Shown in pieces: positions 597-40,110 of a stretch of 64,000 nt of DNA (the first letter of the stretch is position 1; the number at the start of each line of letters is the position of its first letter). The notes under the pieces were generated by a model that saw nothing but the letters and a program-made list of their open reading frames with translations, searched no databases and had not been told where the DNA came from. The stretch lies in sequence record MF158040; one strand, written 5' to 3'. The position numbers and the translations under genes were made by a program. The DNA comes from Shigella phage Sf13.

Positions 597-621
597 TGTG
601 ATTCCTTAAAAGTTATGCTAT

Positions 622-659
622 AAAAACACAAAAGGGGAAGACCTTTTACAGTCTCCCCC
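622..659 (-). terminator. rho-independent terminator (minus strand) after tail tube gene
   Basis: GC-rich hairpin (GGGGGAGAC...GTCTTCCCC on minus strand) followed by T-rich run. Confidence 0.45.
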
Positions 660-672
660 TTATTAGGATTTG

Positions 673-1119
673 TTAAACGCTTGACGCAGGGATTGTTGAA
701 GTGTAGTCTAACTTCTCACAACCGAAAATCCAAGTTTTCGAGTTCTGGTCACGACCTAATTCAATCTGTGGAAGCTCTTGCAACCAAGCATTAATACCTG
801 TTGCCAGAACTGAACCAGATGGGTCGTAAATTACAAAGTTAGATGAGATATCTTCTTCAAGTTCCATGTCATCTTGTTTAGCTTGAATTGCAGAAAGCAT
901 CTGGTTTGATAGAGAAGTCTGCATTAGCTCAATCTCAATCGTACCTGTCTTGTCTGCATTTCTTGTCAGAGCCACTTGACCACCTGCACCTACAACTTGC
1001 GTAACAAGTGGAGAGTTTCTCTGAAGACGCAAGAATGAGTCTGGTGCAAAACCTTCAATGGCAATGCCATTCCAGCTACAAACTACATCTTTAGGGGAAT
1101 ATTGCTGATACATAGCCAT
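673..1119 (-). CDS. tail tube protein (148 aa)
   Basis: ORF track; size and position directly downstream of sheath gene (myovirus sheath-tube order). Confidence 0.5.
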   Translation of the reverse strand: MAMYQQYSPKDVVCSWNGIAIEGFAPDSFLRLQRNSPLVTQVVGAGGQVALTRNADKTGTIEIELMQTSLSNQMLSAIQAKQDDMELEEDISSNFVIYDPSGSVLATGINAWLQELPQIELGRDQNSKTWIFGCEKLDYTSTIPASSV

Positions 1120-21354: not shown

Positions 21355-21380
21355 GGCTCCTTCGGGAGCCTTTTTTATTT
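21355..21380 (+). terminator. rho-independent terminator (plus strand)
   Basis: GGCTCCTTCGGGAGCC hairpin followed by TTTTTTATTT. Confidence 0.6.
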
Positions 21381-26629: not shown

Positions 26630-26637
26630 AACTATAC

Positions 26638-26662
26638 AGCCCCTTAATTGGGGCTTTTTATT
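26638..26662 (+). terminator. rho-independent terminator (plus strand) ending plus-strand block
   Basis: AGCCCC-ttaatt-GGGGCT hairpin followed by TTTTTATT. Confidence 0.55.
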
Positions 26663-26671
26663 GAGTAAAAT

Positions 26672-28170
26672 TTACTAAATTTATAATTTTTATAAAATTT
26701 GGGATTCACTCCGTTCATCTTGGGTCACCATGATATGTGATAAAATATCTATACCCTTCTAAACACCCTCTCTAAGCATCATCTCTATATAGTATTATAT
26801 AGTATCTATATAGCCTCTTAGCCCCTAAATAGTGCTCTCTATATAGCCCTCTATAAAGCCTTCTAAGCCTACCATTAATCAACCCTATACAATCACCTTC
26901 CTAACCTCTTCATAGCCCCTTAGAAGCCCCTATACTCATCTTAATCTCTAGGTAAACGATAGTACACTATATAGCAGAATCACTAGGTATTACTAAGCCT
27001 CTATATAGACTGTTATATAACACTAAACAGGTATTCCCTTCTAAGGCTTATCCTACAAGGTCTAACACGGTACTAACAAGGTCTCTTATAAGCCTGTTAA
27101 TTCCTGTTTTATATAAGATAGTGTATAGATAGTTATTCAGTTCTATAAAATTTTTATAAAATAGACTAGGTAGTGTTTGTTTAGGAGTCTTTGGAGAATC
27201 TGAAAAATATCTACTTAGGGTGTATATCTGCTTGGTAGCCCTTAACAGCCCTGTAACATCCCCTTTGCAGTTTATTAAAATATCATTAACAATTTCTTAA
27301 CAACTCTCTCAAGCTCTTAACATCTCTTCAGAGTTCTTAACAATCCCTTAACAGAACTAACAAGAGCTTAACAAGTCTGTAACGTTGCTTACAAGAGTCT
27401 AACAAGTTGCTTATAAGTTGCTAAATAGTTAAATCTTAAGAGTTATTTTGTTAAGATAATTAACAAGGTGCTAACAAGTTCTAAACCTTTTTAACAGTCT
27501 CTTAACATGGTCACTATCTCTTGGTCTATAGTTCCCTATGTTTCTTAGTGATTCTCTATAAAGCCCTCTTAAAAGCTCTCTATAGCTCTGTATAGCCTCT
27601 TCTAAGCTTCTCCCTAGTAACTACACCCCAACTACCTGTATAGCTCTTTATAGGGCTTTCTAGGGGCTTATACAGGTACTTCAAAGAGTCTAACAAGCTT
27701 TTAACATACCTCTAACAAGGATTTAACAAGGGGCTAACAAGTCTCTAATAAGCATAACTATGTAGCATTTGTTAAGATTTTGTTAAGAGAATGTAAAGGG
27801 GGCTAACTTTTACGTTACTTTTAAGGTTCTTTTACGTTACTTTGAAGACTCCATAACATACTTTAAAGCTATTATCAAGCCCCTTTGTAACCATTCACAA
27901 GATTCTATCCAGCTTATAAGCTTATACCCTTATAAGATTCTTTTAAGGCTCTAGAAAGCTCTATAAAGGGCTTTTAAGAGTAGGTTAATATGATTGCTTA
28001 AGATGAGATGATAAGCCCGTATAGAGCGTTATAGAGCGTTTTAGGGATTGCCCTTCCCTTTCGGGTTATGGGCTTATATTTAAGTTGATTTGATAAGAGG
28101 ATATAGAGTAAGCTATAGAGTTATTATTCTAAATGTATGGGATAGATTCTAGGAAGGTTTCTTTATAGAC
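26672..28170. repeat. ORF-free region dense in short direct repeats (TAACAAG/CTTAACA family; CTATA(A/T)AG family)
   Basis: No ORF of 60 aa or more on either strand over ~1.5 kb; many copies of (C)TAACA(A/G)G and CTCTATA(A/T)AG; bounded by convergent terminators. Confidence 0.6.
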
Positions 28171-28194
28171 GTAAAAAGCCCCATCTAAGGGGCT
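28171..28194 (-). terminator. rho-independent terminator (minus strand) ending small-gene block
   Basis: AGCCCC-ttagat-GGGGCT hairpin followed by TTTTT on minus strand. Confidence 0.5.
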
Positions 28195-28235
28195 GTAAAG
28201 GTGTCTGGGGCTATTTGCCCCGTTGCGGCGACTTG

Positions 28236-28493
28236 TTAGTTATTGAAGCCGTCAACTTCATAGTAAAGCGTGATAAGAGAATCACCCCAATAGTAAGAGG
28301 ATTTGCCATCCTTTAAGACTTCTTGTTTTACTTCTTTCCAGAACCACTCAGATTGATTGTAGTCCTGAATAGTTGCTTTTAGACACATATCAACCATGCC
28401 AAAAACATCGCCAGTTCCAACCATATCAAATTTAACATCTAATACATGGAAGCCAAAATTGTTAACAGTTGCGTGGATAGTAGCCATTTTCAT
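28236..28493 (-). CDS. hypothetical protein (85 aa)
   Basis: ORF track; ATG preceded by conserved GGAGAAT leader. Confidence 0.5.
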   Translation of the reverse strand: MKMATIHATVNNFGFHVLDVKFDMVGTGDVFGMVDMCLKATIQDYNQSEWFWKEVKQEVLKDGKSSYYWGDSLITLYYEVDGFNN

Positions 28494-28553
28494 ATTCTCC
28501 AGTTTAGGAATTTTGTTTTAGTGGGGAAGTCTCCCTCCCCGTTGAAAGTAATA
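28494..28553 (-). promoter_or_regulatory. intergenic cassette, short form (GC hairpin + conserved RBS leader)
   Basis: Minus-strand hairpin GGGGA...TCCCC followed by CCTAAACTGGAGAAT and ATG. Confidence 0.5.
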
Positions 28554-28817
28554 TTAATTCATTGCTGCATAAGTTGCAAGTCTTTTTTCATTGTATTTTG
28601 TAAGAATCTCACAAGATAAAACGTCATACTTTGCAACGGCTTCAGATTTAGTTAAACCGAAATGGCTTACAATTTCACCATTCATGAATCCGACTACTTC
28701 ATAAGATTCTGCGATGATTTCACCGTTGAACCAATCACTTTCAATACGTTTGCAAAGTTGGATATCTTCTTTGTCAGTACCGATTTGTAACAGGATAGTG
28801 ATTTCTTGATTATTCAT
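28554..28817 (-). CDS. hypothetical protein (87 aa)
   Basis: ORF track; ATG after conserved leader. Confidence 0.5.
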   Translation of the reverse strand: MNNQEITILLQIGTDKEDIQLCKRIESDWFNGEIIAESYEVVGFMNGEIVSHFGLTKSEAVAKYDVLSCEILTKYNEKRLATYAAMN

Positions 28818-28877
28818 TTTCTAGTCTCCAGTTTAGGATTGTTGGGGAAGGTCATTCCCTCCCCGTTGATAAGTACT
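28818..28877 (-). promoter_or_regulatory. intergenic cassette, short form
   Basis: Hairpin GGGGAAGG...CCCTCCCC variant plus CCTAAACTGGAGACTAGAAA leader. Confidence 0.5.
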
Positions 28878-29405
28878 TTATAGATTTGTGATGATTTCGT
28901 CAAGGGAATTTTCTAAGTTTTTTAAAGATTGTTCGTAAAGTCTAATTCCCCTATTTAATGCTTCCCCTAACGTAATTTTAAAACTAGTTGTTGGGTAGTC
29001 ACTTGTAAAGATGTTTTCCACTTCATAGAGTGGGTATTGTTGGTTACCCGTTCCCATAGCATACATGCCTGTATAGTGGATTGCAATAAAAAGATTATGG
29101 GACTTAATAGAGCGCTCATAAGCCATTTTAAAGCGGTTTAACTCGTTTTTAGTTGCCTTAATAGCCATTTCGTGAATTTCTGCGACTATAGCCATATAAT
29201 CATTCAGAATGAGAGAAATAGCCCCCATAAAGTTGTTGGCTGTTACCGCTTTTACATTTGGTCGGTGTACATAAAACTTCTTATCTTCCCCTTTTGTGAT
29301 AACTGCAAAAACTTTACTCTTTAAGGTAAATTCCCAAGTGTCTTTACAAGGCTTGCTCATCACTTCACGGCTACGGATTGCATTAACAGCATTAAACTTA
29401 TTCAT
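28878..29405 (-). CDS. hypothetical protein (175 aa)
   Basis: ORF track; ATG after conserved leader. Confidence 0.5.
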   Translation of the reverse strand: MNKFNAVNAIRSREVMSKPCKDTWEFTLKSKVFAVITKGEDKKFYVHRPNVKAVTANNFMGAISLILNDYMAIVAEIHEMAIKATKNELNRFKMAYERSIKSHNLFIAIHYTGMYAMGTGNQQYPLYEVENIFTSDYPTTSFKITLGEALNRGIRLYEQSLKNLENSLDEIITNL

Positions 29406-29470
29406 TCTAGATTCTCCAGTTTAGGAATTTTGTTTTAGTGGGGAAGTCTCCCTCCCCGTTGATGAATACT
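29406..29470 (-). promoter_or_regulatory. intergenic cassette, short form (identical core to 28494-28553)
   Basis: Same 50-mer as cassette at 28494; flank duplicated again at 32911-32950. Confidence 0.5.
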
Positions 29471-29611
29471 TTACTTGTTTTGATTCTGCATTGCAAGTAG
29501 TTTTTTATCAAAAACTTTATCTGAGATTTCACCAATGATGAGTACTGCTAATGGCAACACAACAGAAACAATCATACCACAAAGGATAGGGTTTTTAATG
29601 ATATCTAACAT
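29471..29611 (-). CDS. hypothetical small membrane protein (46 aa), not in ORF track
   Basis: ATG preceded by conserved GGAG leader; hydrophobic core ILCGMIVSVVLPLAVLIIG; C-terminus and 3' flank shared with ORF 32922..33269. Confidence 0.4.
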   Translation of the reverse strand: MLDIIKNPILCGMIVSVVLPLAVLIIGEISDKVFDKKLLAMQNQNK

Positions 29612-29807
29612 TTAGTGATTCTCCAGTTTAGGAAGTTGCCTTTTGAAGATACTATATAGATATGATTAAACCTTTGCAAGTACTTTTTACGCTTATCTAT
29701 AAAGAATCTATTAAGTTAATCCCTTTTAGATAAACCCCCTCGAACAAAGTTACACTTGTCAAGGGGCATTGTCAATAGTTTTTCAAAAGATTTTTATAAG
29801 TTGTTGA
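29612..29807 (-). promoter_or_regulatory. unique upstream region with partial cassette and candidate promoter
   Basis: Partial leader (CCTAAACTGGAGAATCACTAA) then unique sequence with two TTGACA hexamers; TTGACA-N17-TAACTT possible. Confidence 0.3.
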
Positions 29808-30149
29808 TTAGCTTATAAAGATTTTTTCTGGCTTAACATAGGTTAATGACTGTTTTTTAAGCAAATCAGACCAAATGAGCGCGGCAATGTGACTATATCC
29901 CTTTTCTCTTAACTCCTGCATAGCTGATTTGCGAGTTTCGAAACGTGTAGCGTAGTATTCAGTGTTAAGGGTAGTTTTATTCCCTTCATTGTCAACATGT
30001 ACAATCTGCATCACTTGAAAGGGGCTTACATCTTCTCCCCTGTTCCATTGCTCAAAGTACTTGAGACACTGCATAGGTTTCATTTTGTCGTTAACTTGGG
30101 TAGACCATGACGAATTTTCTTTATCGGTGATAATTGTTACATAGGCCAT
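29808..30149 (-). CDS. hypothetical protein (113 aa)
   Basis: ORF track; ATG after conserved leader. Confidence 0.5.
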   Translation of the reverse strand: MAYVTIITDKENSSWSTQVNDKMKPMQCLKYFEQWNRGEDVSPFQVMQIVHVDNEGNKTTLNTEYYATRFETRKSAMQELREKGYSHIAALIWSDLLKKQSLTYVKPEKIFIS

Positions 30150-30234
30150 TTTCAGATTCTCCAGTTTAGGATTGTTGGTAAAGCTCTTTATCTGGGGCTT
30201 AAGATACTAGCTTTTAAACCCCATGTAAAGCACT
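30150..30234 (-). promoter_or_regulatory. intergenic cassette, long form (sigma70-like promoter flanked by GGGG/CCCC inverted repeat, then conserved leader)
   Basis: Minus strand: TTTACA, 17-bp spacer, TATCTT; GGGG after -35 and CCCC after -10; leader ACAATCCTAAACTGGAGAAT. Confidence 0.55.
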
Positions 30235-30432
30235 TTAATAAATTCTATCCATCAGATTATTCACGGCCATAATTGCATTATCTTTGAAGTGTGGATGACT
30301 GCTATTCTGTGAGAATAGTATTTCTCCATTGTATACTATTTTTAGGTCTATCTTTGAACCTTCCATGTTAAGGTTACACTCTACACCTTTTAAACACCAC
30401 AAGGTAGAAAGTTTTTGCATCAGTGATAACAT
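30235..30432 (-). CDS. hypothetical protein (65 aa)
   Basis: ORF track; ATG after conserved leader. Confidence 0.5.
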   Translation of the reverse strand: MLSLMQKLSTLWCLKGVECNLNMEGSKIDLKIVYNGEILFSQNSSHPHFKDNAIMAVNNLMDRIY

Positions 30433-30523
30433 TTTAGATTCTCCAGTTTAGGATTGTTGGTAAAGCTCTTTATCTGGGGCTTATCTTATCTAACTATAAA
30501 CCCCATGTAAAGTACTTTATTAG
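30433..30523 (-). promoter_or_regulatory. intergenic cassette, long form
   Basis: TTTACA, 17 bp, TAAGAT with flanking GGGG/CCCC and conserved leader. Confidence 0.55.
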
Positions 30524-30745
30524 TTATTTGTAGTAATAATATGTAAACTCATTTATCAGGCTTCCATCCTCATCATTATACTGCTTATGACTAGCCAGAT
30601 AACCGCCATTAGCTAGAATTTCATCAATCAACTTTTTAGCGTCATCGTTGGGAATCCTAACAGGTTTACTAAACGGCTGTAAATAGGTACGACGAACATT
30701 TGAGAATTTAAAATCAATGGTTTTTACGTTAAGAACTTGCAACAT
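30524..30745 (-). CDS. hypothetical protein (73 aa)
   Basis: ORF track ORF (TTG start inside cassette) trimmed to ATG at M27 directly after conserved leader. Confidence 0.45.
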   Translation of the reverse strand: MLQVLNVKTIDFKFSNVRRTYLQPFSKPVRIPNDDAKKLIDEILANGGYLASHKQYNDEDGSLINEFTYYYYK

Positions 30746-30823
30746 TTTTTGAATCTCCAGTTTAGGATTGTTGGGATGTTTCCCGTTGATGAATACTTTA
30801 CTTTCTTGCGTTTTCAGTGTCAA
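30746..30823 (-). promoter_or_regulatory. intergenic cassette, short form
   Basis: Hairpin GGGA-aaca-TCCC plus conserved leader. Confidence 0.5.
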
Positions 30824-31054
30824 CTACTTTTCTATAAGAATCTCATATTCACCATTCACACTATCAAAGTAAATACCTTCATCATCTTCTGATTTATAGT
30901 AGCACTGTATATCATCCGATGCTGGGTAGTCTTGCCTTGCTATCTGACAGGCAACAATAGCATTATTTTCGCTACCTGTAAACTCTTCTAAACCTTTAAA
31001 GTTGCATTGTGAACCATTGCAGATAGATAGAATAAGATAGATTGTTGTAAGCAT
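30824..31054 (-). CDS. hypothetical secreted/membrane-anchored protein (76 aa, N-terminal hydrophobic signal-like segment)
   Basis: ORF track; N-terminus MLTTIYLILSICNGSQC; AGAGG RBS; lacks the conserved cassette. Confidence 0.45.
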   Translation of the reverse strand: MLTTIYLILSICNGSQCNFKGLEEFTGSENNAIVACQIARQDYPASDDIQCYYKSEDDEGIYFDSVNGEYEILIEK

Positions 31055-31117
31055 CTTTTAAGCCTCTTGTAAGCCCCTGTGCGGGGCTTTTCTAGTGAAC
31101 TGGTGTGATTCTATGGT

Positions 31118-31675
31118 TTATGCTGTTAAGTCGTTTATAACCGTTTCTGTTACGTTGCATTGCATGGTGTCAAAGATATCACAATATACATTGCTCATCC
31201 CATCACTACGTTGGACTATTTCTGCAATGTTGCGTAGTTCGTCTGGTACATATCCTAAATTTCTATTGTTTAGGTTAGGGACAAAGAAAGGCGCATACAT
31301 AGCATTAAATTCAGTTGTGTAAACCTTTTTAATCCATTCTTTATCGAAATATTCTGTAAAGCTTGCTACGTCGCTCATGTTCTCACAGCTCCAGTCATCT
31401 TGTAAATCATCTTCTGGAATATCCAGTTCCAAGATAACAAGCTTTTGTGACTTCATTTGATAGGCTGCTGTAATGCTTGCGCTATCAAGCGCGTTTCTAA
31501 TACCTTCATCTGTGATTTGTTCGTCATCCAGATTCTCTACATCATAGAACTTGTTAACAGGGTAGACGTAAAAACATCCATCCATATCAGAGCAATTCCA
31601 AGCTCCTGATGGTTTATCACCGCCATTGATAAGGTTTACAAAGTTTTCTTGTGTAGTACCATGAAAGCATTTCAT
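31118..31675 (-). CDS. hypothetical protein (185 aa)
   Basis: ORF track; ATG after conserved leader. Confidence 0.5.
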   Translation of the reverse strand: MKCFHGTTQENFVNLINGGDKPSGAWNCSDMDGCFYVYPVNKFYDVENLDDEQITDEGIRNALDSASITAAYQMKSQKLVILELDIPEDDLQDDWSCENMSDVASFTEYFDKEWIKKVYTTEFNAMYAPFFVPNLNNRNLGYVPDELRNIAEIVQRSDGMSNVYCDIFDTMQCNVTETVINDLTA

Positions 31676-31759
31676 TTTAGATTCTCCAGTTTAGGATTGT
31701 TGGTAAAGCTCTTTATCTGGGGCTTATCTTATCTAACTATAAACCCCATGTAAAGCACT
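31676..31759 (-). promoter_or_regulatory. intergenic cassette, long form
   Basis: TTTACA, 17 bp, TAAGAT; GGGG/CCCC flanks; conserved leader. Confidence 0.55.
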
Positions 31760-32008
31760 TTATTTAGTTTTCTTTGTAAAGATTAGTTTAACGGCAACAG
31801 TTGGTAACTCTTCAATACTTGTGAACAAAGTCACTTTTTGAGTCTTGACATTATAGCCATACTTTGAACCATAAGCCGTAAAACGGTTTACAATGTAACT
31901 GTAAGTTTTTGCAGTGTTATCTGGCATATGATATAAAAACGGCTTGCCAAGGTTATCAAGTTGTGTTAAGAGTCGGCATGTATCAGGGATATTCAACATA
32001 TTAAACAT
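31760..32008 (-). CDS. hypothetical protein (82 aa)
   Basis: ORF track; ATG after conserved leader. Confidence 0.5.
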   Translation of the reverse strand: MFNMLNIPDTCRLLTQLDNLGKPFLYHMPDNTAKTYSYIVNRFTAYGSKYGYNVKTQKVTLFTSIEELPTVAVKLIFTKKTK

Positions 32009-32093
32009 TTTCAGATTCTCCAGTTTAGGATTGTTGGGGCTTCTAACTTGCCCCGTTGATGAGTACTCTACTACTATGCTTTTGCAATGTCAA
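32009..32093 (-). promoter_or_regulatory. intergenic cassette, short form
   Basis: Hairpin GGGGC-aagttagaa-GCCCC plus conserved leader. Confidence 0.5.
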
Positions 32094-32501
32094 TCAAATC
32101 TCTGAATAAATTGCATCGCAGATTTCACGGAAAACTTCAACCGGTAAGTTACGCTGTAACCATGTTGCAAAGAAATCAGCAATTGCAAAGTTTGCATCAA
32201 AATCAACACATAGCCACACTTTAACAGCAAATCTAAACATTTTCAAGTCAAGTTCTTTATTCATTACTTTTGACTTTGACAGCATTTCTTTCATCTCATA
32301 CTGAGCACCGTCAATTATAGCTCCTGCTGCTACATCTTGCAAGGATTCTTTAAGCTGTTTTGTGTCTACTACTGCGCCCTGAATTTTACCGATGATATTA
32401 TGTAGTGTTTCGTCTGGTGCTGCTGATGTTACAATGTTGATGCGGTTAATGGTCAAACGTGCTTTCAAAATTGCAACTTCTTTGTGATTAACATTAGTCA
32501 T
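32094..32501 (-). CDS. hypothetical protein (135 aa)
   Basis: ORF track; ATG after leader. Confidence 0.5.
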   Translation of the reverse strand: MTNVNHKEVAILKARLTINRINIVTSAAPDETLHNIIGKIQGAVVDTKQLKESLQDVAAGAIIDGAQYEMKEMLSKSKVMNKELDLKMFRFAVKVWLCVDFDANFAIADFFATWLQRNLPVEVFREICDAIYSEI

Positions 32502-32590
32502 TTTCTAGTCTCCAGTTTAGGTTAGTTTTAGATAAATCTCTTTATCTGGGGCTATCTTAGCAACTTGATAACCCCATGTAAAGCAATTTA
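32502..32590 (-). promoter_or_regulatory. intergenic cassette, long form
   Basis: TTTACA, 17 bp, TAAGAT; leader variant CTAAACTGGAGACTAGAAA. Confidence 0.55.
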
Positions 32591-32863
32591 TTAGACTAAA
32601 TACAATTTTTTACCACTAACAATAATGTAACTTACACCGCTATTACTGTAAACATCTTGATAAATTCTGCGTAACTTTCCAAGGTATCGAACTTTCCAAG
32701 ATGTAGGAATTTTCTTTCCATATCCTGTGGCGGTTTTTTGTAGACCTGCTACCTGCCAATCTAATAGGTGCTGTTCTGCTCTTAACTCTTCAAAGTTTAA
32801 TACACCGTCTACATAGTGTTTTAAAGTTACGTTCAAAGTTCGACCGTCATTAGTAGTATACAT
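32591..32863 (-). CDS. hypothetical protein (90 aa)
   Basis: ORF track; ATG after leader. Confidence 0.5.
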   Translation of the reverse strand: MYTTNDGRTLNVTLKHYVDGVLNFEELRAEQHLLDWQVAGLQKTATGYGKKIPTSWKVRYLGKLRRIYQDVYSNSGVSYIIVSGKKLYLV

Positions 32864-32921
32864 TTTAGATTCTCCAGTTTAGGATTGTTGGGACTTCTAT
32901 CTTGCCCCGTTGATGAATACT
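32864..32921 (-). promoter_or_regulatory. intergenic cassette, short form
   Basis: Imperfect hairpin GGGGCAAGATAGAAGTCCC plus conserved leader; upstream flank duplicated at 29461-29500. Confidence 0.5.
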
Positions 32922-33269
32922 TTACTTGTTTTGATTCTGCATTGCAAGCTCTTTTTTATTAATTTCTTGCGCTATCACAATATAATAATCTTTCAGGTTT
33001 ATATCTTGAATTGACTCTAGAAGTATGTCATAATCACTGATTAATTTAAAATCACCGTCTAGAATGTTATCAATCCGGTATGTCTCTGCTTTAAATCGAA
33101 AGCTCATCTCTAAACGTTTCAATTGTTCTAAGTTCAAACGCTCTAAAAAGCCCCGTACAAGGTTTATTTTTAAATCCCTTGTAAGTGCCTTATTAGCTAT
33201 ACTGTGCGCTTGTAAGGCTTTATAGAGCGCCACAATAGAGATAAAAATTGCAACGTATGTGATTAACAT
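32922..33269 (-). CDS. hypothetical membrane protein (115 aa, N-terminal TM)
   Basis: ORF track; ATG overlaps stop of upstream gene; C-terminus KKELAMQNQNK shared with small ORF 29471..29611. Confidence 0.5.
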   Translation of the reverse strand: MLITYVAIFISIVALYKALQAHSIANKALTRDLKINLVRGFLERLNLEQLKRLEMSFRFKAETYRIDNILDGDFKLISDYDILLESIQDINLKDYYIVIAQEINKKELAMQNQNK

Positions 33270-33559
33270 TTGTTTTTACCTTTGTGGAATAGTTTACCAG
33301 TGTGACTAATTTCATATGAATCAACCATATCTCTAGTGGTCTTAATCGATGACTTATTAGTGTTATCATAGATATCAACCTGAAGCAATGGTTTTTTGTA
33401 TTCTTTACAAAAGTTCCATACACAAATTATTACTTCCTTTTTGTTAATCTTTCCATGATACCACTCTACGGCTTCAGATGTACGGCGCATGGATTCAATG
33501 AATTGGATATTACTTAATAGCTGGCTTAATTTAGTTCTAACGTTTGCGGCAATAAACAT
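33263..33559 (-). CDS. hypothetical protein (98 aa)
   Basis: ORF track; ATG after leader. Confidence 0.5.
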   Translation of the reverse strand: MFIAANVRTKLSQLLSNIQFIESMRRTSEAVEWYHGKINKKEVIICVWNFCKEYKKPLLQVDIYDNTNKSSIKTTRDMVDSYEISHTGKLFHKGKNKC

Positions 33560-33643
33560 TTTAGATTCTCCAGTTTAGGATTGTTTGTAAAGCTCTTTAT
33601 CTGGGGCTATCTTATCAACTTGATAACCCCATGTAAAGCACTT
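33560..33643 (-). promoter_or_regulatory. intergenic cassette, long form
   Basis: TTTACA, 17 bp, TAnnnT; GGGG/CCCC flanks; leader. Confidence 0.55.
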
Positions 33644-34156
33644 TTAGATATTAAAGATATTCATAACAGAATCTTTCAAGGCTTCTAAACGTTCCATTAC
33701 TTCAGATTCTCCATCGGAGTTCGACACTTCCTCTTCTAATCGTGAATCTAAATCTTCACCGTCAAGATAGCACCAATCGAAGCCATAAGCAAGAGAAAAG
33801 CTATTTAATACTGTATTACCTTCTTTATCTTCTACCTTTGCAAATAGCACGTAGCTGTTAGCCTCTAAATCTCTTTGTAATTCATCTTGTAAGCTCTTGT
33901 AAGCCTCTATAGATGGATTTTCGCGGCCTTGTTTAGCATAATCACTCATCAATTGTGAAAGGCTGTAATGCTGTGGAATTGCATATTTGTACCCGTTACG
34001 CTCTGGATTTTTAAGTTTGATTGTAACCCCGCCTTTGTGCTCATCGGTAAACTTCCAATTTTCCACACAATGGGATGCTTCACAAATATTAACAGCTTCA
34101 TAGATGATAGTGAATTTTTCTTTTTGAACTTCAAAGGTAGCTTCAACGTATGACAT
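33644..34156 (-). CDS. hypothetical protein (170 aa)
   Basis: ORF track; ATG after leader. Confidence 0.5.
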   Translation of the reverse strand: MSYVEATFEVQKEKFTIIYEAVNICEASHCVENWKFTDEHKGGVTIKLKNPERNGYKYAIPQHYSLSQLMSDYAKQGRENPSIEAYKSLQDELQRDLEANSYVLFAKVEDKEGNTVLNSFSLAYGFDWCYLDGEDLDSRLEEEVSNSDGESEVMERLEALKDSVMNIFNI

Positions 34157-34248
34157 ATTAAGATTCTCCAGTTTAGGACTATTGGTTAGTAAAGCTCTTT
34201 ATCTGGGGCTTATACTAGCAACTTATAAACCCCATGTAAAGCACTTTA
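34157..34248 (-). promoter_or_regulatory. intergenic cassette, long form
   Basis: TTTACA, 17 bp, TAGTAT; GGGG/CCCC flanks; leader variant. Confidence 0.55.
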
Positions 34249-34506
34249 TCAGATTAAATTGTCAGTTAATGATAAGTGCATTTTATAACCTTTCTTCGTG
34301 TAGACGTTAGTTCTACCGATTGCTTTTACACCTTTGAAAAGGTCATAGGAACTACGTTTTAAAGTAATTTCCTTATCACATTTCACGCCCCATCTTACAG
34401 CAGATTCTTTTCCGTTGTCAACCACTTTACCATTTAATTTTTTAGCAGTTGCGCGAGCGTCATCACGAGATTTTGCAGATACAATGATGTTTTTGATAGT
34501 AGCCAT
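34249..34506 (-). CDS. hypothetical protein (85 aa)
   Basis: ORF track; ATG after leader. Confidence 0.5.
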   Translation of the reverse strand: MATIKNIIVSAKSRDDARATAKKLNGKVVDNGKESAVRWGVKCDKEITLKRSSYDLFKGVKAIGRTNVYTKKGYKMHLSLTDNLI

Positions 34507-34597
34507 TTTTGATACTCCAGTTTAGGTTATTGTTTGGTAAAGCTCTTTATCTGGGGCTTATCTTATCTAACTATAAACCCCATGTAAAGGACTTTAT
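34507..34597 (-). promoter_or_regulatory. intergenic cassette, long form
   Basis: TTTACA, 17 bp, TAAGAT; leader variant CCTAAACTGGAGTATCAAAA. Confidence 0.55.
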
Positions 34598-34978
34598 TTA
34601 GTTAATTTTGAAAACTGTAACGTAGCCATCACTACCAATAGTTTGAGATACTCCAGCTTTCTCTATATCATACCCCATTTTATCAAGATGGTACATTGCA
34701 TCTTCATACCCATATTTACCGCCTTGATAGCGTCTTTTTTCGCATCGTATCACAGTTTTACCACGTCCTGCAATAGCATTTATGATAGCTTTTTCACCGG
34801 ATAATGTACCGTCAAGCATAGTAGCTTTGTAGTGGTTAATACGGTTACCATTAACATCATACTTAAAATTGTAAGCGTGAACAACAATTATTTTTCCTTT
34901 GAAGTTTTCTTTCATAGTTTCCTCTAAGATACTACGAAAGTTTTCTTTGTTGATAAATTTAGGCGCACGATATTTCAT
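34598..34978 (-). CDS. hypothetical protein (126 aa)
   Basis: ORF track; ATG after leader. Confidence 0.5.
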   Translation of the reverse strand: MKYRAPKFINKENFRSILEETMKENFKGKIIVVHAYNFKYDVNGNRINHYKATMLDGTLSGEKAIINAIAGRGKTVIRCEKRRYQGGKYGYEDAMYHLDKMGYDIEKAGVSQTIGSDGYVTVFKIN

Positions 34979-35062
34979 TTTAGATTCTCCAGTTTAGGAT
35001 TGTTGGTAAAGCTCTTTATCTGGGGCTTAAGATACTAGATTTTAAACCCCATGTAAAGCACT
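34979..35062 (-). promoter_or_regulatory. intergenic cassette, long form
   Basis: TTTACA, 17 bp, TATCTT; GGGG/CCCC flanks; leader. Confidence 0.55.
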
Positions 35063-35224
35063 TTATGCAATAATTTTTATAAAATATTTCATGGTTATTT
35101 TGTCGCCATTGGTAAGGGCTATACAATCATTACCCATAGCAGACTTATAGAGATAGAAGACTTTACCAATTTTTGGGTATCCGTCTAAATCTTTGTATTG
35201 TATTACATCGCTTTCTTTAATCAT
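35063..35224 (-). CDS. hypothetical protein (53 aa)
   Basis: ORF track ORF (TTG start) trimmed to ATG at M27 with AAAGG RBS; candidate TTTACA-N17-TTATTA promoter upstream. Confidence 0.4.
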   Translation of the reverse strand: MIKESDVIQYKDLDGYPKIGKVFYLYKSAMGNDCIALTNGDKITMKYFIKIIA

Positions 35225-35235
35225 TGTCAAGCCTT

Positions 35236-35442
35236 TTAAACGTTGTAATAATAAATTGCTGTATGCCTTGTAAACTGTCTTGTATGAGTTGTCAAGTAAC
35301 AATCTGAACTGATTGACGTATCAACATATTCATCAAAATCCTTTTCTGAGATACGTTGCCAAACATCACAAATTAGCATATAGAAACGACGTTTATTTGT
35401 TTTGTTGTTGTCAACAATCATTAACTCACGTTGATATAACAT
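35236..35442 (-). CDS. hypothetical protein (68 aa)
   Basis: ORF track; ATG after leader. Confidence 0.5.
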   Translation of the reverse strand: MLYQRELMIVDNNKTNKRRFYMLICDVWQRISEKDFDEYVDTSISSDCYLTTHTRQFTRHTAIYYYNV

Positions 35443-35500
35443 TTTAGATTCTCCAGTTTAGGATTGTTGGGATGTTTCCCGTTGATGCAAATACTATAAG
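35443..35500 (-). promoter_or_regulatory. intergenic cassette, short form
   Basis: Hairpin GGGA-aaca-TCCC plus conserved leader; same variant as 30746-30823. Confidence 0.5.
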
Positions 35501-35693
35501 ACTGGATTTATGAAGTCAACAAAATTTTTAAAAATATTTTCGATGCTTCGTGAATAGAACGCACGTATGCGGATACACTAAAACAGGAATTTAGTCAAGA
35601 ATTATTTTTGAGTTCTCTACAAATTTTTCTCTTGACTTTTGGGAGGAAGGGGATTAAGAGGGGATGGTGGGGCTGGTTTCCTACAGCTACCTA

Positions 35694-35885
35694 CCTGCAC
35701 AATTTGAAAATGAATTTTCCCTTTGGAGTCCAACTGCATCTGCACAGATTGAAAATGAAAAAGCTCTTTGGAGTCTAAACCTGCACAAATTTGAAATGAA
35801 TTTTCCCTTTGGAGTTCAGCTAAAGAAATCTGTCCAGAGTTCTATGCAACTATACCTGCACAAATTTAAAATGAAAAAGCCCTCC
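35694..35885. repeat. four imperfect ~40-bp direct repeats (CCTGCACAAATTTGAAAATGAA...TTTGGAGT)
   Basis: Units start near 35694, 35740, 35780, 35855; indels between units shift the frame of the overlapping plus ORF. Confidence 0.55.
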
Positions 35886-35946
35886 TTACCTGAGATTTTT
35901 AAACTCAAACTTTGGAGGGCTTGTCTATGTCTAGCTAGGTGACTTA

Positions 35947-36741
35947 TTAGTTACGTGCTTCAACATAGCTTACGTTTTCATGTGTGATATAATCTTCTGC
36001 AAACTCTTCTGTAGTAGCATTGATATATACACTTGCATCATCGCCAAACGTTACCGCTCTGTGGTGGTGGCCTTGTAACGGGTGGGTAACTTGAGCGTTA
36101 CTTCGATTGTACTTATCAACCGGAGGGTAACTGGTGTGTACCTTGCCATTACGCTTCACCTTGAGGGTAACTTTATCCTTGCCTACCACAGCAACACCAT
36201 CAAAGTATTGAGGCTCACTGAAGTTCTCCCAACCAGTAACAGGACTAGTCAACTGACTGTACATCTTATCTTCATAGACATACATATATACGTCAACATC
36301 TTTCATGGTCTGATTAATAATGGACAGCACAGCCATACTATCAAGACCACCAATCCCTGCACCAATCATAGGGAGTCCAACCTTCTTAAGCTGGTTTACT
36401 TTACAGTAGTTGTTAAGACGCTGTAAAGCTGCTTCTAAGGCATTGTATCGTGCATTTTTTCCAGTGATAACCTGAGTATAAAGGTTAGCAATTCGACCCT
36501 GCTTCAAACGTGCTACAGAGATGTTACCAAGCATTAGATTCTTAGGGTTATGGTTTTCACCACCTACTGTAGCATAAACTTCAGCGTCAGTTTCATAAGC
36601 TTTTGGGTAGCGTTTAGCAATTGTTGCTGCGATACCTGCACCCATCAAGTTCATGCAGTTACAACCGTGACCAATGATATCAAACTTCTTACCATCAAAG
36701 TCTTTAAAGATATCACCTTTAATAATTTTTACGATACCCAT
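35947..36741 (-). CDS. macro domain (ADP-ribose binding/processing) protein with C-terminal domain of unknown function
   Basis: Macro-like motifs IIKGDIF...GHGCNCMNLMGAGIAATIAKRYP ... KKVGLPMIGAGIGGLD; start set to ATG at M20 one nt after the zinc-ribbon gene stop. Confidence 0.55.
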   Translation of the reverse strand: MGIVKIIKGDIFKDFDGKKFDIIGHGCNCMNLMGAGIAATIAKRYPKAYETDAEVYATVGGENHNPKNLMLGNISVARLKQGRIANLYTQVITGKNARYNALEAALQRLNNYCKVNQLKKVGLPMIGAGIGGLDSMAVLSIINQTMKDVDVYMYVYEDKMYSQLTSPVTGWENFSEPQYFDGVAVVGKDKVTLKVKRNGKVHTSYPPVDKYNRSNAQVTHPLQGHHHRAVTFGDDASVYINATTEEFAEDYITHENVSYVEARN

Positions 36742-36742
36742 A

Positions 36743-36943
36743 TTAGTAATGCTCCCAACGTTCGTTATCTTCAGATGGTTTAACTCGGTTACCTTCATGG
36801 TCTACCCATAAAGCACCGCAACCTTCACAGATTACTGGCATTGCTGAACCAGCTTCAAACTCTGCCTTTGTAAAGAGACCTTTTAAGTCTCCTGTATCTT
36901 TTCCAAACATCTCAACAGAACACTTAGTGCAGAAATCAGCCAT
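36743..36943 (-). CDS. zinc-ribbon protein (66 aa; CxxC...CxxC)
   Basis: ORF track; Cys pairs FCTKC and CEGC; coupled to macro-domain gene. Confidence 0.5.
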   Translation of the reverse strand: MADFCTKCSVEMFGKDTGDLKGLFTKAEFEAGSAMPVICEGCGALWVDHEGNRVKPSEDNERWEHY

Positions 36944-38787: not shown

Positions 38788-39483
38788 TCAGTTTTTAACA
38801 AGCATTGTTTTGATGTGTGGTAAGATTCTTTCAACCTTTGCCACGTTCTTCACTGTATCTTCTATAAAGCATACTACATCATAGTAGGGTAGAATGCAAG
38901 ACTGAAGCATACGAACTTTCAAACTTTCTGCACTAATCTCATTGTCACCAAATCCACGCATAAACAGTAGGAAATCACTGTCTACATTCTCATTCAGGAA
39001 AAGATGTGTGACAACTCTTTGTGATTCACCACGAGCAGTTAGGAATCCTATATCAGCATTTCTTGATATACCACACAGGATGTTAAAAACATATGTTGGT
39101 TTAGCTCTGCGAGAGTCTACCAAGTTAGTATATTGTGAGTAAGAACCATCATCTAACAGAGTTGCATTAAGTTTCTTGTCAAAGCTTGTAAGAACACCAT
39201 CAATGTCTGCTAAGACCATTTTACGTTTTTCTTCCAAGTTCTTTGCAACCAAGATAAGGCTGTTACGACCAACATATACAGTTTTACCTGTTAGCAAATC
39301 CTGACAAGGAATCTGTGTCTTTGTTGAGTGGAAGTCTTCAAAGCTACACACAACATTTCTTGCTGTATCTGCAAAGTCAGCTTTAGCAATATCTGACCAA
39401 CTTGCAGAACTGATATCTAAATCAAGTGGTTTAATATCATAAGCATGACACAGAACCATATCAAATTGTTTTGATTCGCTCAT
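38788..39483 (-). CDS. HAD-superfamily hydrolase candidate (nucleotidase/phosphatase-like)
   Basis: Motif VLADIDGVLT resembling HAD motif I (DxDGxT); otherwise unassigned. Confidence 0.35.
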   Translation of the reverse strand: MSESKQFDMVLCHAYDIKPLDLDISSASWSDIAKADFADTARNVVCSFEDFHSTKTQIPCQDLLTGKTVYVGRNSLILVAKNLEEKRKMVLADIDGVLTSFDKKLNATLLDDGSYSQYTNLVDSRRAKPTYVFNILCGISRNADIGFLTARGESQRVVTHLFLNENVDSDFLLFMRGFGDNEISAESLKVRMLQSCILPYYDVVCFIEDTVKNVAKVERILPHIKTMLVKN

Positions 39484-40009
39484 ATTTTACCTTTTTAATG
39501 TTTGTTGCAAACTCACATTGAGCCAGCAGTTTCATGTTATTGTACACATCTTGAGAGTATTGTCTAGCCTTTGGAATCTTGTATTTGTAACCAGCATTAT
39601 AAGAAGCTAGGACACGCTTCATAGAGTACTTTCCATCTGGGTTACCATGAACCTTAGTCCAGAATAATAGCTCCTTATGAGCCTCTTTCGCTGAGTAATG
39701 GAAGTCACTTACTAGCTTCTTCTTAGCAACCTTTGGAGATACCTTGTTACGCTTTACAACAGTCTTCAAGTGATTCTGGAAAACACCATAATCATGAGTC
39801 TTTTTATTTTCTAACATGACACCTAATTGTGACTCTTGTAAGGCTATAGCTGCTAAAGGGATTCCCCAACCTTTTCCCATCTGCCCTTCGCCATAGTTAT
39901 ATGCTTTTAACATATTAACTTTCTGGCTGATTGTAAGCTCTGGACAGTCAGATGCTGTAGCTAAATGTGCTGTAAAGAATAAGCACAAACCTAAAACAAA
40001 TTTCTTCAT
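39461..40009 (-). CDS. secreted lytic transglycosylase (SLT-domain) protein
   Basis: Signal peptide MKKFVLGLCLFFTAHLATAS; SLT-like motif AAIALQESQLG...YGVFQ; start set to M9 with AGGAG RBS. Confidence 0.45.
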   Translation of the reverse strand: MKKFVLGLCLFFTAHLATASDCPELTISQKVNMLKAYNYGEGQMGKGWGIPLAAIALQESQLGVMLENKKTHDYGVFQNHLKTVVKRNKVSPKVAKKKLVSDFHYSAKEAHKELLFWTKVHGNPDGKYSMKRVLASYNAGYKYKIPKARQYSQDVYNNMKLLAQCEFATNIKKVKYERIKTI

Positions 40010-40110
40010 TTGCACTCCTATTTTGTTAAACATGCAGACAATTATACACTAACCTGCACATTTTTCAAATAAAAAAGGCTGCCGAAGCAGCCCCTTTAGG
40101 AATTTACTTA

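What the first reader, a model, noticed from the sequence alone, without database searches (positions are those of the whole stretch)
35694..35885. Four imperfect ~40-bp direct repeats downstream of the macro-domain gene
Units beginning CCTGCACA(A)ATTTGAAAATGAA... recur at about 35694, 35740, 35780 and 35855 with small indels. The region lies between two minus-strand genes and ends in a long-loop hairpin (AGCCCTCC...GGAGGGCT) followed by a T-run on the minus strand. Repeated sites of this kind are typical of protein-binding arrays such as iterons or regulator operators.
Basis: seen in the sequence. Interest (0 to 1): 0.5.

Follow-up and report, generated by a model that had tools for sequence, protein, structure and literature searches.

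The report
Conserved protein-binding-type DNA repeats in Felix O1-like phages
The four repeats are real and are copies of a two-box DNA motif kept almost unchanged across all Felix O1-like phages, with a fifth copy sitting on a promoter 4.2 kb away, so they most likely mark where an unidentified regulatory protein binds the phage DNA.

Summary
The window is a Mooglevirus (Felix O1-like myovirus). Four same-orientation units follow the terminator of the macro-domain gene.

Each unit is a 24-bp bipartite motif, read on the minus (gene-sense) strand: A/T run, YATTT, 7 nt, GTGCA, K, R.

- **Constraint:** in 26 distinct genomes the two boxes are nearly invariant (pi 0.007 and 0.004). The fixed-length 7-nt gap (0.222), the inter-unit spacers (0.221) and four-fold sites of the adjacent gene (0.266) drift freely.
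- **Distribution:** the array occurs in every Ounavirinae lineage examined, including Erwinia phages, always just 3' of the macro gene.
- **Excluded:** it is not coding (indels break every frame), not a folded RNA (no conserved structure, no Rfam hit), and not the genome end (the DTR homologue lies 7.9 kb away). It carries no DnaA, IHF, Fis or CRP boxes.
- **New finding:** a conserved fifth "orphan" unit at 40053-40076 is fused to the rIIB terminator and overlaps the -35/spacer of a strong sigma-70 promoter.

Best reading: binding sites on double-stranded DNA for an unidentified sequence-specific regulator. This is closer to operators than to classical iterons. Binding itself is inferred, not shown. 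The motif is undescribed in the literature searched.

The parts
35878..35921 (-). Intrinsic terminator of the macro-domain gene. It is a two-helix hairpin (AGCCCTCC AAAG TTGAG ... CTCAG GTAA GGAGGGCT), and its T-run is the start of unit 1.
   Evidence: Sequence. Conserved structure on the minus strand only (alifold z = -3.4 versus -0.8 antisense). Annotated as a rho-independent terminator in wV8, ASO1B, XTG1 and KhF1.
35855..35878 (-). Unit 1 core: TTTTT CATTT TAAATTT GTGCA GG
35780..35803 (-). Unit 2 core: AAATT CATTT CAAATTT GTGCA GG
35739..35762 (-). Unit 3 core: TTTTT CATTT TCAATCT GTGCA GA
35694..35717 (-). Unit 4 core: AAATT CATTT TCAAATT GTGCA GG
40053..40076 (-). Orphan fifth unit: TTTTT TATTT GAAAAAT GTGCA GG. 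It is fused to the rIIB terminator T-run and overlaps the promoter below.
   Evidence: Conserved in 17 Felix O1-like loci at -4.2 to -6.6 kb from the array, with ATTT, GTGCAG and GTATAAT fixed and the sequences between them variable.
40077..40092 (-). Terminator hairpin of rIIB: GGCTGC TTCG GCAGCC
   Evidence: The upstream 373-aa ORF is rIIB (phrog_609, E = 6e-85).
40041..40068 (-). Sigma-70-type promoter TTGAAA-N16-TATAAT (11 of 12 matches). GTGCA falls at about -25 to -21 and ATTT at about -36 to -33.
   Evidence: Promoter scan; sequence. TATAAT starts 13 nt after the G of GTGCA in every lineage variant.
35641..35676 (+). G-rich tract (C-rich on the gene-sense strand) next to unit 4. It fits the canonical G-quadruplex pattern, and its strand polarity is reversed in the dune/VpaE1 lineage.
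35593..35637 (.). Second strongly conserved non-coding block: two back-to-back TTGACT hexamers (one per strand) flanking an A/T-rich core. The plus-strand candidate promoter is TTGACT-N17-TAAGAG (35632-35660).
   Evidence: pi = 0.054 in 26 genomes. Invariant columns. The Erwinia phage equivalent is TTGACC-N18-TATACT, read from the sequence.
35491..35519 (-). Promoter-like site TTGACT-N17-TAGTAT for the downstream small-ORF block.
35440..35471 (-). Conserved leader/RBS (CCCAACAATCCTAAACTGGAGAATCTAAAATG), the first of 13 copies heading the small early ORFs.
   Evidence: the repeat finder family D1.

Best explanation
The repeats are binding sites on double-stranded DNA for one sequence-specific protein. 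That protein is unidentified and is most likely phage-encoded. Each site is an asymmetric 24-bp motif read on the minus (gene-sense) strand: A/T run, YATTT, any 7 nt, GTGCA, K, R. The two boxes are about 12 bp apart centre to centre, so both face the same side of the helix. Four sites sit in the untranscribed gap between the macro-gene terminator and the next early promoters. A fifth sits between the rIIB terminator and the transcription start of the next operon, covering the -35/spacer of its promoter.

Inferred mechanism: when the protein is present it occupies the orphan site and controls that promoter. Repression by occlusion is the simplest reading. An activator that replaces the -35 contact is possible, because the -35 is weak in the Felix group. 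The four-site cluster lies 4.2 kb downstream, at the end of the same operon (rIIB terminator to macro gene). It would act as an auxiliary high-occupancy cluster serving one or more of three roles: a roadblock reinforcing termination and blocking antisense transcription from the plus-strand promoter, a local reservoir, or a looping partner.

Shown: the motif, its anatomy, its selective constraint, its distribution, its positions relative to terminators and promoters, and the absence of coding or RNA-fold signal. Inferred: that a protein binds it, which protein, and the direction of regulation.
For: 1. Constraint pattern in 26 distinct genomes. YATTT has pi 0.007 and GTGCA 0.004. The fixed-length 7-nt gap has 0.222, the inter-unit spacers 0.221, and four-fold sites of the adjacent gene 0.266.
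2. ATTT-N7-GTGCA has a fixed internal length in every unit of every lineage, while unit-to-unit spacing varies (37/37/39, 73/39/45, 75/41/45, 148/38).
3. The A/T run is T5 in some units and A4-5 in others. The two forms are similar on duplex DNA but not on RNA.
4. There is no conserved RNA structure on either strand (z between -1.1 and -1.9), while the terminator control gives z = -3.4. Rfam gives no hit.
5. Indels of 2, 4, 2, 2, 10 and 33 nt lie inside the array, and ORF annotations disagree between records.
6. The motif is unique in the genome of about 90 kb: the four array sites plus the orphan, against about 0.4 expected per strand in the window and about 0.15 in the remainder.
7. The orphan is conserved in 17 loci with the same box-versus-gap pattern and a constant 13-nt offset to a perfect TATAAT. 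The promoter scores 11 of 12.
8. The 3' box differs by lineage: GTGCAGG in enteric phages and GTGCATAG in Erwinia phages and L043. This suggests co-evolution with a phage protein rather than a shared host factor.
9. No DnaA, IHF, Fis or CRP boxes are present.
Against: No binding experiment exists and no candidate binder was found. Pfam and PHROGs show no DNA-binding domain in the flanking genes or in any protein of the rIIB-to-macro operon. The sites are asymmetric direct repeats, unlike the palindromic operators of most helix-turn-helix repressors. The array units do not overlap a promoter and have no -10 at the orphan's offset. The Erwinia lineage has the array but no orphan within the 4-6 kb upstream that was available. 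Unit spacing is not in helical phase, which argues against a rigid cooperative complex. A plus-strand promoter candidate could transcribe the array, so an RNA-level reading is not excluded.
Confidence: 0.5

Rival explanations
1. Replication-origin iterons. The four direct repeats bind a phage initiator, the neighbouring conserved A/T-rich block between back-to-back promoters is the unwinding element activated by transcription, and the orphan copy is an auxiliary or regulatory site.
For: The units are asymmetric, same-orientation repeats with two boxes one helical turn apart, as Rep-type initiators read iterons (established knowledge of RepE, pi and RepA). The locus is single in the genome. A conserved A/T-rich block flanked by promoters lies adjacent (pi 0.054). 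No origin has been mapped for these phages. An operator-plus-iteron layout is known from iteron plasmids.
Against: Spacing of 37-75 bp is irregular and out of helical phase, unlike the roughly 22-bp iteron register. No Rep-like or DNA-binding gene is adjacent. There are no DnaA or IHF boxes. There is no GC-skew extremum at the locus, although skew follows gene orientation here. The replication genes lie elsewhere in the genome.
Confidence: 0.15
2. An RNA-level linear motif. The array is transcribed, either from the plus-strand promoter candidate or by read-through of the terminator, and the repeated boxes recruit an RNA-binding protein or nuclease in the manner of a sponge or processing array.
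For: The invariant plus-strand TTGACT hexamer and the -10-like TAAGAG (TATACT in Erwinia phages) point into the array. Repeated short motifs with variable spacing are typical of protein-sponge RNAs (established knowledge of CsrB/RsmZ).
Against: The A/T run switches between U5 and A5. The 7-nt gap is strictly fixed in length. There is no conserved fold and no Rfam hit. On the gene-sense strand all five sites lie between a terminator and the next start site. The orphan has no plus-strand promoter candidate. The window's -10 (TAAGAG) lacks the key final T.
Confidence: 0.1
3. A boundary element for staged genome entry, like the injection stop signal of phage T5, or another packaging or entry-related cis site. 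The array marks the inner edge of the terminal 5-8 kb block of tiny early genes.
For: The order macro gene, array, variable small-ORF block, DTR is constant. The array lies 5.1-7.9 kb (6-9% of the genome) from the DTR homologue, and the DTR itself was mapped experimentally in UAB_Phi87 (PMC4837284). The T5 iss is a conserved non-coding repeat region 7.9% in from the end, next to a hypervariable coding block, with a related repeat region a variable 1.9-4.3 kb away (10.1101/866236).
Against: The T5 iss carries paired DnaA boxes and lies inside a 10-kb terminal repeat. Here there are no DnaA boxes and the DTR is about 0.6 kb and 7.9 kb away. Two-step entry has never been reported for Felix O1-like phages. 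Which end enters first is unknown. The orphan's exact register with a promoter is not explained by this reading.
Confidence: 0.07
4. A small protein-coding gene on the plus strand, as annotated in several relatives (Mordin_126, Sf15_gp10, Moogle115, Silverhawkium_gp124).
For: A 92-aa plus-strand ORF (35664-35942) exists and matches phrog_15689 at E = 1e-52. Plus-strand ORFs recur in most relatives.
Against: ORF length and frame differ even among close relatives: 92, 61, 62 and 74 aa, none in SUSP1, and other frames in the Felix group. Indels are not multiples of three. The single window ORF reads units 1-2 and 3-4 in different frames. The unit simply lacks stop codons in two frames. Variation does not fall on third codon positions but in the N7 block. 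The PHROG family only reflects annotated ORFs on conserved DNA.
Confidence: 0.03
5. Functionless relics of tandem duplication of a terminator-promoter cassette.
For: Box 1 looks like the usual terminator T-tract of this phage; the terminators at 21371, 38283 and 47856 have TTTTTYATTT. Units 1 and the orphan are fused to real terminators. Unit 3 resembles unit 1 with the hairpin deleted. The surrounding early region is full of duplicated cassettes.
Against: Near-invariance of YATTT and GTGCA across at least 26 distinct genomes and four lineages, while adjacent bases drift at the neutral rate. The internal length is preserved. The array is retained in Erwinia phages.
Confidence: 0.05

Closest known systems
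Auxiliary or distant operator clusters of phage and bacterial repressors (lambda OL/OR, coliphage 186 flanking sites, lac O2/O3)
   Same: One site lies over a core promoter and a cluster of related sites lies kilobases away, at the other end of the same transcription unit. The sites sit in non-transcribed gaps. The constraint is confined to short boxes.
   Different: The sites here are asymmetric direct repeats without dyad symmetry. The binder is unknown. No looping or repression has been shown. The Erwinia lineage has the cluster without a detectable promoter-proximal site.
Iterons of Rep-dependent plasmid and phage origins (F RepE, R6K pi, P1 RepA)
   Same: Three to five same-orientation repeats of about 20-24 bp, with two conserved sub-sites in successive major grooves, next to an A/T-rich block. 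A related site at a promoter is known from Rep autoregulation.
   Different: Spacing is 37-75 bp and irregular rather than about 22 bp. No Rep gene is adjacent. There are no DnaA or IHF boxes. Origin activity is untested.
Phage T5 injection stop signal region (Repeat Region 3 of the left terminal repeat)
   Same: A highly conserved non-coding repeat region 6-9% of the genome in from the terminus. It borders a hypervariable block of small early genes and is more conserved than neighbouring ORFs, with a second related repeat site a few kb away.
   Different: T5 has a 1.2-1.7 kb maze of direct and inverted repeats, palindromes and eight DnaA boxes inside a 10-kb terminal repeat. Here there are four simple direct repeats, no DnaA boxes and a short DTR 7.9 kb away. 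Two-step transfer is unknown in this family.
T4 middle promoters (MotA box replacing the -35 element)
   Same: In the orphan site a phage-specific conserved motif occupies the -35/spacer region upstream of an excellent -10, with a weak -35 in the Felix group.
   Different: Only one such promoter was found. The four array units lack a -10 at the corresponding distance. No MotA or AsiA homologues are known in Felix O1 (PMC3185647).

Membership tests
Rep-type origin iterons | Several direct repeats of about 17-24 bp in one orientation | tested here: met
   Four units (three to five in relatives), all on the minus strand, each with a 24-bp core.
Rep-type origin iterons | Regular spacing of about two helical turns (in phase) | tested here: not met
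   Spacings are 75/41/45, 73/39/45 and 37/37/39 bp, which correspond to 3.5-7.1 turns and are not in phase.
Rep-type origin iterons | Adjacent gene for the initiator that binds them | tested here: not met
   The neighbours are the macro-domain protein and small unknowns. No DNA-binding or Rep domain was found by Pfam or PHROGs.
Rep-type origin iterons | Adjacent A/T-rich unwinding element with host-factor boxes (DnaA, IHF) | tested here: inconclusive
   A conserved A/T-rich block is present at 35593-35637 (pi 0.054). No DnaA or IHF box was found at up to 1 mismatch.
Rep-type origin iterons | Origin activity | not testable with these tools
   This needs marker-frequency analysis or a replication assay. 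No origin is mapped in the literature held.
Operators of a transcription regulator | Site overlaps core promoter elements | tested here: met
   The orphan covers about -37 to -20 of TTGAAA-N16-TATAAT, with a constant register in all variants. The four array units do not overlap a promoter.
Operators of a transcription regulator | Selective constraint limited to contact bases at fixed geometry | tested here: met
   The boxes have pi 0.004-0.007, while the fixed 7-nt gap has pi 0.222.
Operators of a transcription regulator | Identified cognate regulator and demonstrated binding | not testable with these tools
   No candidate was found. A Cro/CI-type HTH gene exists elsewhere in the genome (Sf15 gp66) but nothing links it to the motif.
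T5-type injection stop signal | Conserved non-coding repeat region at the inner edge of a terminal early-gene segment (about 8% of the genome) | tested here: met
   The array lies 5.1-7.9 kb from the DTR homologue in seven loci, with the variable small-ORF block between them.
T5-type injection stop signal | Paired DnaA boxes, inverted repeats and palindromes, located within a long terminal repeat | tested here: not met
   No DnaA boxes are present. The units are simple direct repeats. The DTR is about 0.6 kb and lies 7.9 kb away.
T5-type injection stop signal | Two-step DNA transfer | not testable with these tools
   No report exists for Felix O1-like phages in the library searched.
Structured non-coding RNA | Conserved secondary structure or match to a known family | tested here: not met
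   Rfam gathering and E-value scans gave nothing. Alifold z scores were -1.1 to -1.9 on both strands, against -3.4 for the terminator control.
Protein-coding gene (phrog_15689) | Reading frame conserved among relatives | tested here: not met
   Indels of 2, 4, 2, 2 and 10 nt break the frame, and ORFs differ in frame, length and strand (and the annotation calls).
Genome terminus / packaging site | Coincides with the physical end or the DTR | tested here: not met
   The experimentally mapped UAB_Phi87 DTR aligns to window 27232-27794, 7.9 kb away. Record breaks at this locus are assembly artefacts.
Intrinsic terminator (the hairpin only) | G+C-rich hairpin followed by a U-tract, functional on one strand | tested here: met
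   The hairpin lies at 35878-35921 with a T5 run on the minus strand. Its structure is conserved with G-U pairs only on that strand.

The most novel reading that the evidence does not exclude
The array, with the orphan as partner, is the cis-acting boundary of a staged genome entry. The terminal 5-8 kb block of tiny, individually promoted early genes next to the short DTR would enter and be expressed first. A protein bound at the GTGCA-box array would then halt or gate further transfer, or gate transcription across the boundary. This would be a T5-like two-step strategy in an unrelated myovirus family, using a different DNA signal without DnaA boxes.
Probability: 0.07. Interest if true: 0.85.

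Novelty: new member of a known kind. Interest (0 to 1): 0.55.

Why it matters
Felix O1 is a classic Salmonella typing phage, and its relatives are widely used in biocontrol and therapy. The Felix O1 genome paper states that how its transcription is temporally regulated is not known. The phage has no RNA polymerase of its own and no known factors that modify promoter specificity.

A short, precisely defined DNA motif is under selection as strong as anything in these genomes. It occurs once on a strong promoter and four times at the end of the same operon. This gives a concrete handle on the problem. The motif can be used as bait to identify the binding protein. It can be mutated to test control of the operon that runs from just after rIIB, through the polynucleotide kinase and spanin genes, to the macro gene. 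It can also be used to correct annotation, because spurious small ORFs are called over it in many GenBank records. If it proves to be an origin or an entry-control site, it would be the first such cis element defined for the subfamily.

Tried and rejected
1. **Genome terminus or pac site.** Several database records begin or end near the locus (Andreotti, LMP34, KhF1, TH10, FSL SP-010). The break points differ, Andreotti has chimeric palindromic ends, LMP34 is a partial genome, and KhF1's duplicate is an N-rich low-quality overlap. The experimentally mapped DTR of UAB_Phi87 aligns 7.9 kb away.
2. **Known RNA family or structured ncRNA.** No hit and no conserved fold.
3. **Small protein.** Rejected on frame-breaking indels and inconsistent ORFs, despite a PHROG match.
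4. **Host-factor boxes.** DnaA, IHF, Fis and CRP gave none. By eye, the Erwinia-phage units resemble a DnaA box (TGTGCATAG), but the enteric units do not, so a shared host factor is unlikely.
5. **Each unit as a sigma-70 promoter.** Only unit 1 gives a weak match (TTTTCA-N17-TATAGT). By-eye comparison with sigma-54, sigma-E and sigma-32 consensus sequences found nothing consistent across lineages.
6. **Binder encoded next door.** No DNA-binding domain was found in the neighbours or the operon. The C-terminal extension of the macro protein is absent in L043, which still has the array.
7. **GC skew for an origin.** Uninformative, because skew follows gene orientation.
8. **PhageMaP knockout data for the Felixounavirus Bas63.** Only genes are scored, not intergenic sites. 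The macro gene and its neighbours are dispensable. I could not find the Bas63 record to see whether gene 94 or 96 lies in the array.
9. **L043 post-array TTAACA-rich tract as a DTR.** No significant alignment, so this stays unresolved.
10. **First IMG/VR pattern.** It used fixed spacing and was too strict.

Full report
**1. What the window is.** The region 35200-36900 is 96-98% identical to Shigella phages Sf15, Henu11 and Sf14 and to Escherichia phage 3HA14. It is 90-93% identical to Citrobacter phages Mordin, Michonne and Moogle. These are Mooglevirus members of the Ounavirinae, the Felix O1-like myoviruses. The finding lies in a 504-bp non-coding stretch (35443-35946) between two minus-strand genes. 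One is a macro-domain protein (35947-36798; Pfam Macro E = 4e-8, phrog_335 "phosphatase"). The other is a 68-aa ORF (35236-35442).

**2.
- TRF finds an array at 35693-35815 with period 41-45.
- The gapless finder gives four copies at 35693, 35738, 35779 and 35854.
- A degenerate 20-mer core hits these four sites and one other in 64 kb, against 0.26 expected.
- The hairpin and minus-strand T-run are present. The hairpin is a two-helix terminator rather than a plain long-loop hairpin.
- Across 14 relatives its structure is significant only on the minus strand (z = -3.4 versus -0.8).
- The T-run is also the first five bases of unit 1.

**3. Conservation.** The non-coding stretch is conserved at about 70% identity in 254 phage records covering Felixounavirus, Mooglevirus and Suspvirus. 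The repeat part also matches 16 Erwinia phages. A 12-genome alignment shows near-invariant cores in all four units.

Erwinia phage Fifi318 (Kolesnikvirus) has the same layout: macro gene, terminator, four to five units of TTTTTCATTTT-N-GTGCATAG, then a C-rich tract. A pattern scan of IMG/VR found true arrays only in Felix O1-like contigs. The other hits were two-copy coding repeats. One divergent contig (L043) has five units, again just 3' of a macro-domain gene. That gene is 148 aa and lacks the C-terminal extension. The downstream neighbour differs between lineages. The array is therefore linked to the macro gene's 3' end.

**4. Anatomy.** On the minus (gene-sense) strand each unit reads: W5, YATTT, N7, GTGCA, K, R.
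- ATTT-N7-GTGCA has a fixed length in every unit of every lineage.
- Unit-to-unit spacing varies: 75/41/45 in the Moogle and Susp groups, 73/39/45 in the Felix group, 75/45 where one unit is lost, 37/37/39 in the Erwinia group, and 148/38 in L043.
- The A/T run is T5 in units 1 and 3 and A-rich in units 2 and 4.
- The 3' box is GG(TA) in enteric phages and TAG in the Erwinia phages and L043.

**5. Selection.** Nucleotide diversity in 26 distinct genomes:

| Site class | pi |
|---|---|
| Four-fold degenerate sites of the macro gene | 0.266 |
| Codon positions 1 and 2 of the macro gene | 0.177 |
| Inter-unit spacers | 0.221 |
| N7 gap | 0.222 |
| A/T run | 0.065 |
| K, R | 0.030 |
| YATTT | 0.007 |
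| GTGCA | 0.004 |

Two invariant boxes sit about 12 bp apart across a neutral gap of fixed length. This is the signature of a rigid reader of double-stranded DNA contacting one face of the helix. Gene conversion cannot explain it, because that would also homogenise the gap.

**6. Alternatives tested.**
- **Coding.** Plus-strand ORFs recur, but they differ in frame, length and even strand between records. Indels of 2, 4, 2, 2, 10 and 33 nt lie inside the array. The unit simply lacks stop codons in two frames. The phrog_15689 match reflects annotated ORFs on conserved DNA.
- **RNA.** No Rfam family matches and neither strand has a conserved fold.
- **Host factors.** No DnaA, IHF, Fis or CRP box is present.
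- **Terminus.** Records that break near the locus do so at different points and show assembly artefacts. The 608-bp DTR mapped experimentally in UAB_Phi87 (PMC4837284) aligns to window 27232-27794, 7.9 kb away.

**7. The orphan unit.** The one extra motif hit is not chance. At 40053-40076 on the minus strand a full-consensus unit (TTTTT TATTT GAAAAAT GTGCA GG) is fused to the T-run of the rIIB terminator (GGCTGC-TTCG-GCAGCC). It overlaps TTGAAA-N16-TATAAT, one of the two best promoter matches in 7 kb.

It is conserved in 17 loci of the Moogle, Felix and L062 lineages, 4.2-6.6 kb from the array. It shows the same pattern: ATTT, GTGCAG and GTATAAT are fixed, and the sequences between them vary. 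TATAAT always starts 13 nt after the G of GTGCA. This places GTGCA at about -25 to -21 and ATTT at about -36 to -33.

The rest of the genome (Sf15 31000-57000) has no copy. The Erwinia loci show no orphan within the 4-6 kb upstream that was available.

Box 1 resembles the ordinary terminator T-tract of this phage, since other terminators end in TTTTTYATTT without GTGCA. The distinguishing feature of the unit is therefore GTGCA at the fixed distance.

**8. Layout.** In the gene sense the order is:
1. rIIA and rIIB, ending in the rIIB terminator.
2. The orphan unit and its promoter.
3. An operon of a secreted-looking 190-aa protein, polynucleotide kinase, spanins, small unknowns and the macro-domain protein.
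4. The macro-gene terminator and the four-unit array.
5. A C-rich tract.
6. A conserved block of back-to-back TTGACT hexamers (pi 0.054).
7. A promoter and leader.
8. About 7.2 kb of small ORFs, each with a repeated promoter/leader cassette.
9. A 1.6-kb non-coding region holding the DTR homologue.

All five units lie in gaps between a terminator and the next start site. On the gene-sense strand these gaps are essentially untranscribed.

**9. Interpretation.** The best-supported reading is a set of binding sites on double-stranded DNA for one sequence-specific protein. The protein is probably phage-encoded, given the lineage-specific 3' box. At the orphan it would control a strong promoter by occupying the -35/spacer. 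The four-site cluster at the far end of the same operon would act as a roadblock, reservoir or looping partner. This is inference. No binder was found by Pfam or PHROGs in the neighbourhood and no experiment exists.

Classical iterons fit in orientation and bipartite form. They fail on spacing, on an adjacent initiator gene and on host-factor boxes. A T5-like injection-stop or boundary role fits the geometry (10.1101/866236) but not the sequence features, and it has no experimental basis in this family.

**10. Novelty.** The Felix O1 genome paper lists only exact repeats of 24 bp or more and does not mention these. It also states that temporal regulation is unknown (PMC3185647). wV8's annotated direct repeats do not include them. 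Text searches for the motif strings return only unrelated primers. The element appears undescribed, but it belongs to a familiar kind: clustered cis-acting protein-binding sites.

Noticed in passing
window 26630-28235, especially 27232-27794: [quoted passage not shown] It is packed with TGTTAA / CTTGTTAG motifs: 11-12 per 500 nt against a window mean of 0.7. This is probably the physical genome end, and both flanking gene blocks are transcribed towards it.
   Followed up: partly
window 28236-35471: A 7.2-kb block of small minus-strand ORFs. Each is preceded by a repeated cassette: 13 copies of the leader CATTTTAGATTCTCCAGTTTAGGATTGTTGG on the plus strand, plus repeated stem-loop and promoter modules of 80-117 nt. 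It is hypervariable between lineages and recalls the mobile promoter/stem-loop cassettes of T4-type phages.
   Followed up: partly
window 35641-35676 (+): The G-rich tract GGGAGGAAGGGGATTAAGAGGGGATGGTGGGG fits the canonical G-quadruplex pattern. It overlaps the spacer, -10 and start of the plus-strand promoter candidate. In the dune/VpaE1 lineage the G-rich strand is the other one. Two incomplete GenBank assemblies (Andreotti, LMP34) break exactly here.
   Followed up: partly
window 35593-35637: Back-to-back TTGACT hexamers, one on each strand, flank an A/T-rich core. The block is as conserved as the repeat boxes (pi 0.054). It is a probable divergent promoter pair whose plus-strand member would transcribe antisense to the macro gene.
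   Followed up: partly
window 21371 (+), 38283 (-), 40092 (-), 47856 (-): The intrinsic terminators share a stereotyped form: GGCTCC/GGCTGC-TTCG-GGAGCC/GCAGCC (a UUCG tetraloop) followed by TTTTT(C/T)ATTT.
   Followed up: no
window 36077-36184: Three imperfect 27-nt direct repeats (67-74% identity, spacing 41 and 40) lie inside the 3' part of the macro-domain gene. That part encodes a C-terminal extension missing from the 148-aa homologue in L043.
   Followed up: no
window 11656-16347 (-): A cluster of 25 tRNA genes (ARAGORN; Rfam finds 23), including two Met, two Gln, two Lys, two Arg, two Ser and three Leu.
   Followed up: no
GenBank GU169904.1 (Staphylococcus phage SA1) 128672-129012: A record labelled as a Staphylococcus phage carries this Felix O1-type locus at 98.5% identity, and one Campylobacter-labelled record also matches. 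These are likely chimeric or contaminated records.
   Followed up: no
L043 (IMGVR_UViG_3300045988_063805), about 600-760, minus strand: In this divergent lineage the array is followed directly by about 200 nt with eight TTAACA motifs. The style matches the 5' end of the UAB_Phi87 DTR, but there is no significant alignment. If this is its DTR, the small-ORF block is absent there and the array abuts the genome end.
   Followed up: partly
window 39461-40033 (-): The 190-aa ORF probably starts at the second ATG (about 40008), after a GGAG Shine-Dalgarno sequence. That start gives a signal-peptide-like N-terminus (MKKFVLGLCLFFTAHL). The first ATG lies at the predicted transcription start. There is a weak SLT transglycosylase hit (E = 0.002).
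   Followed up: no
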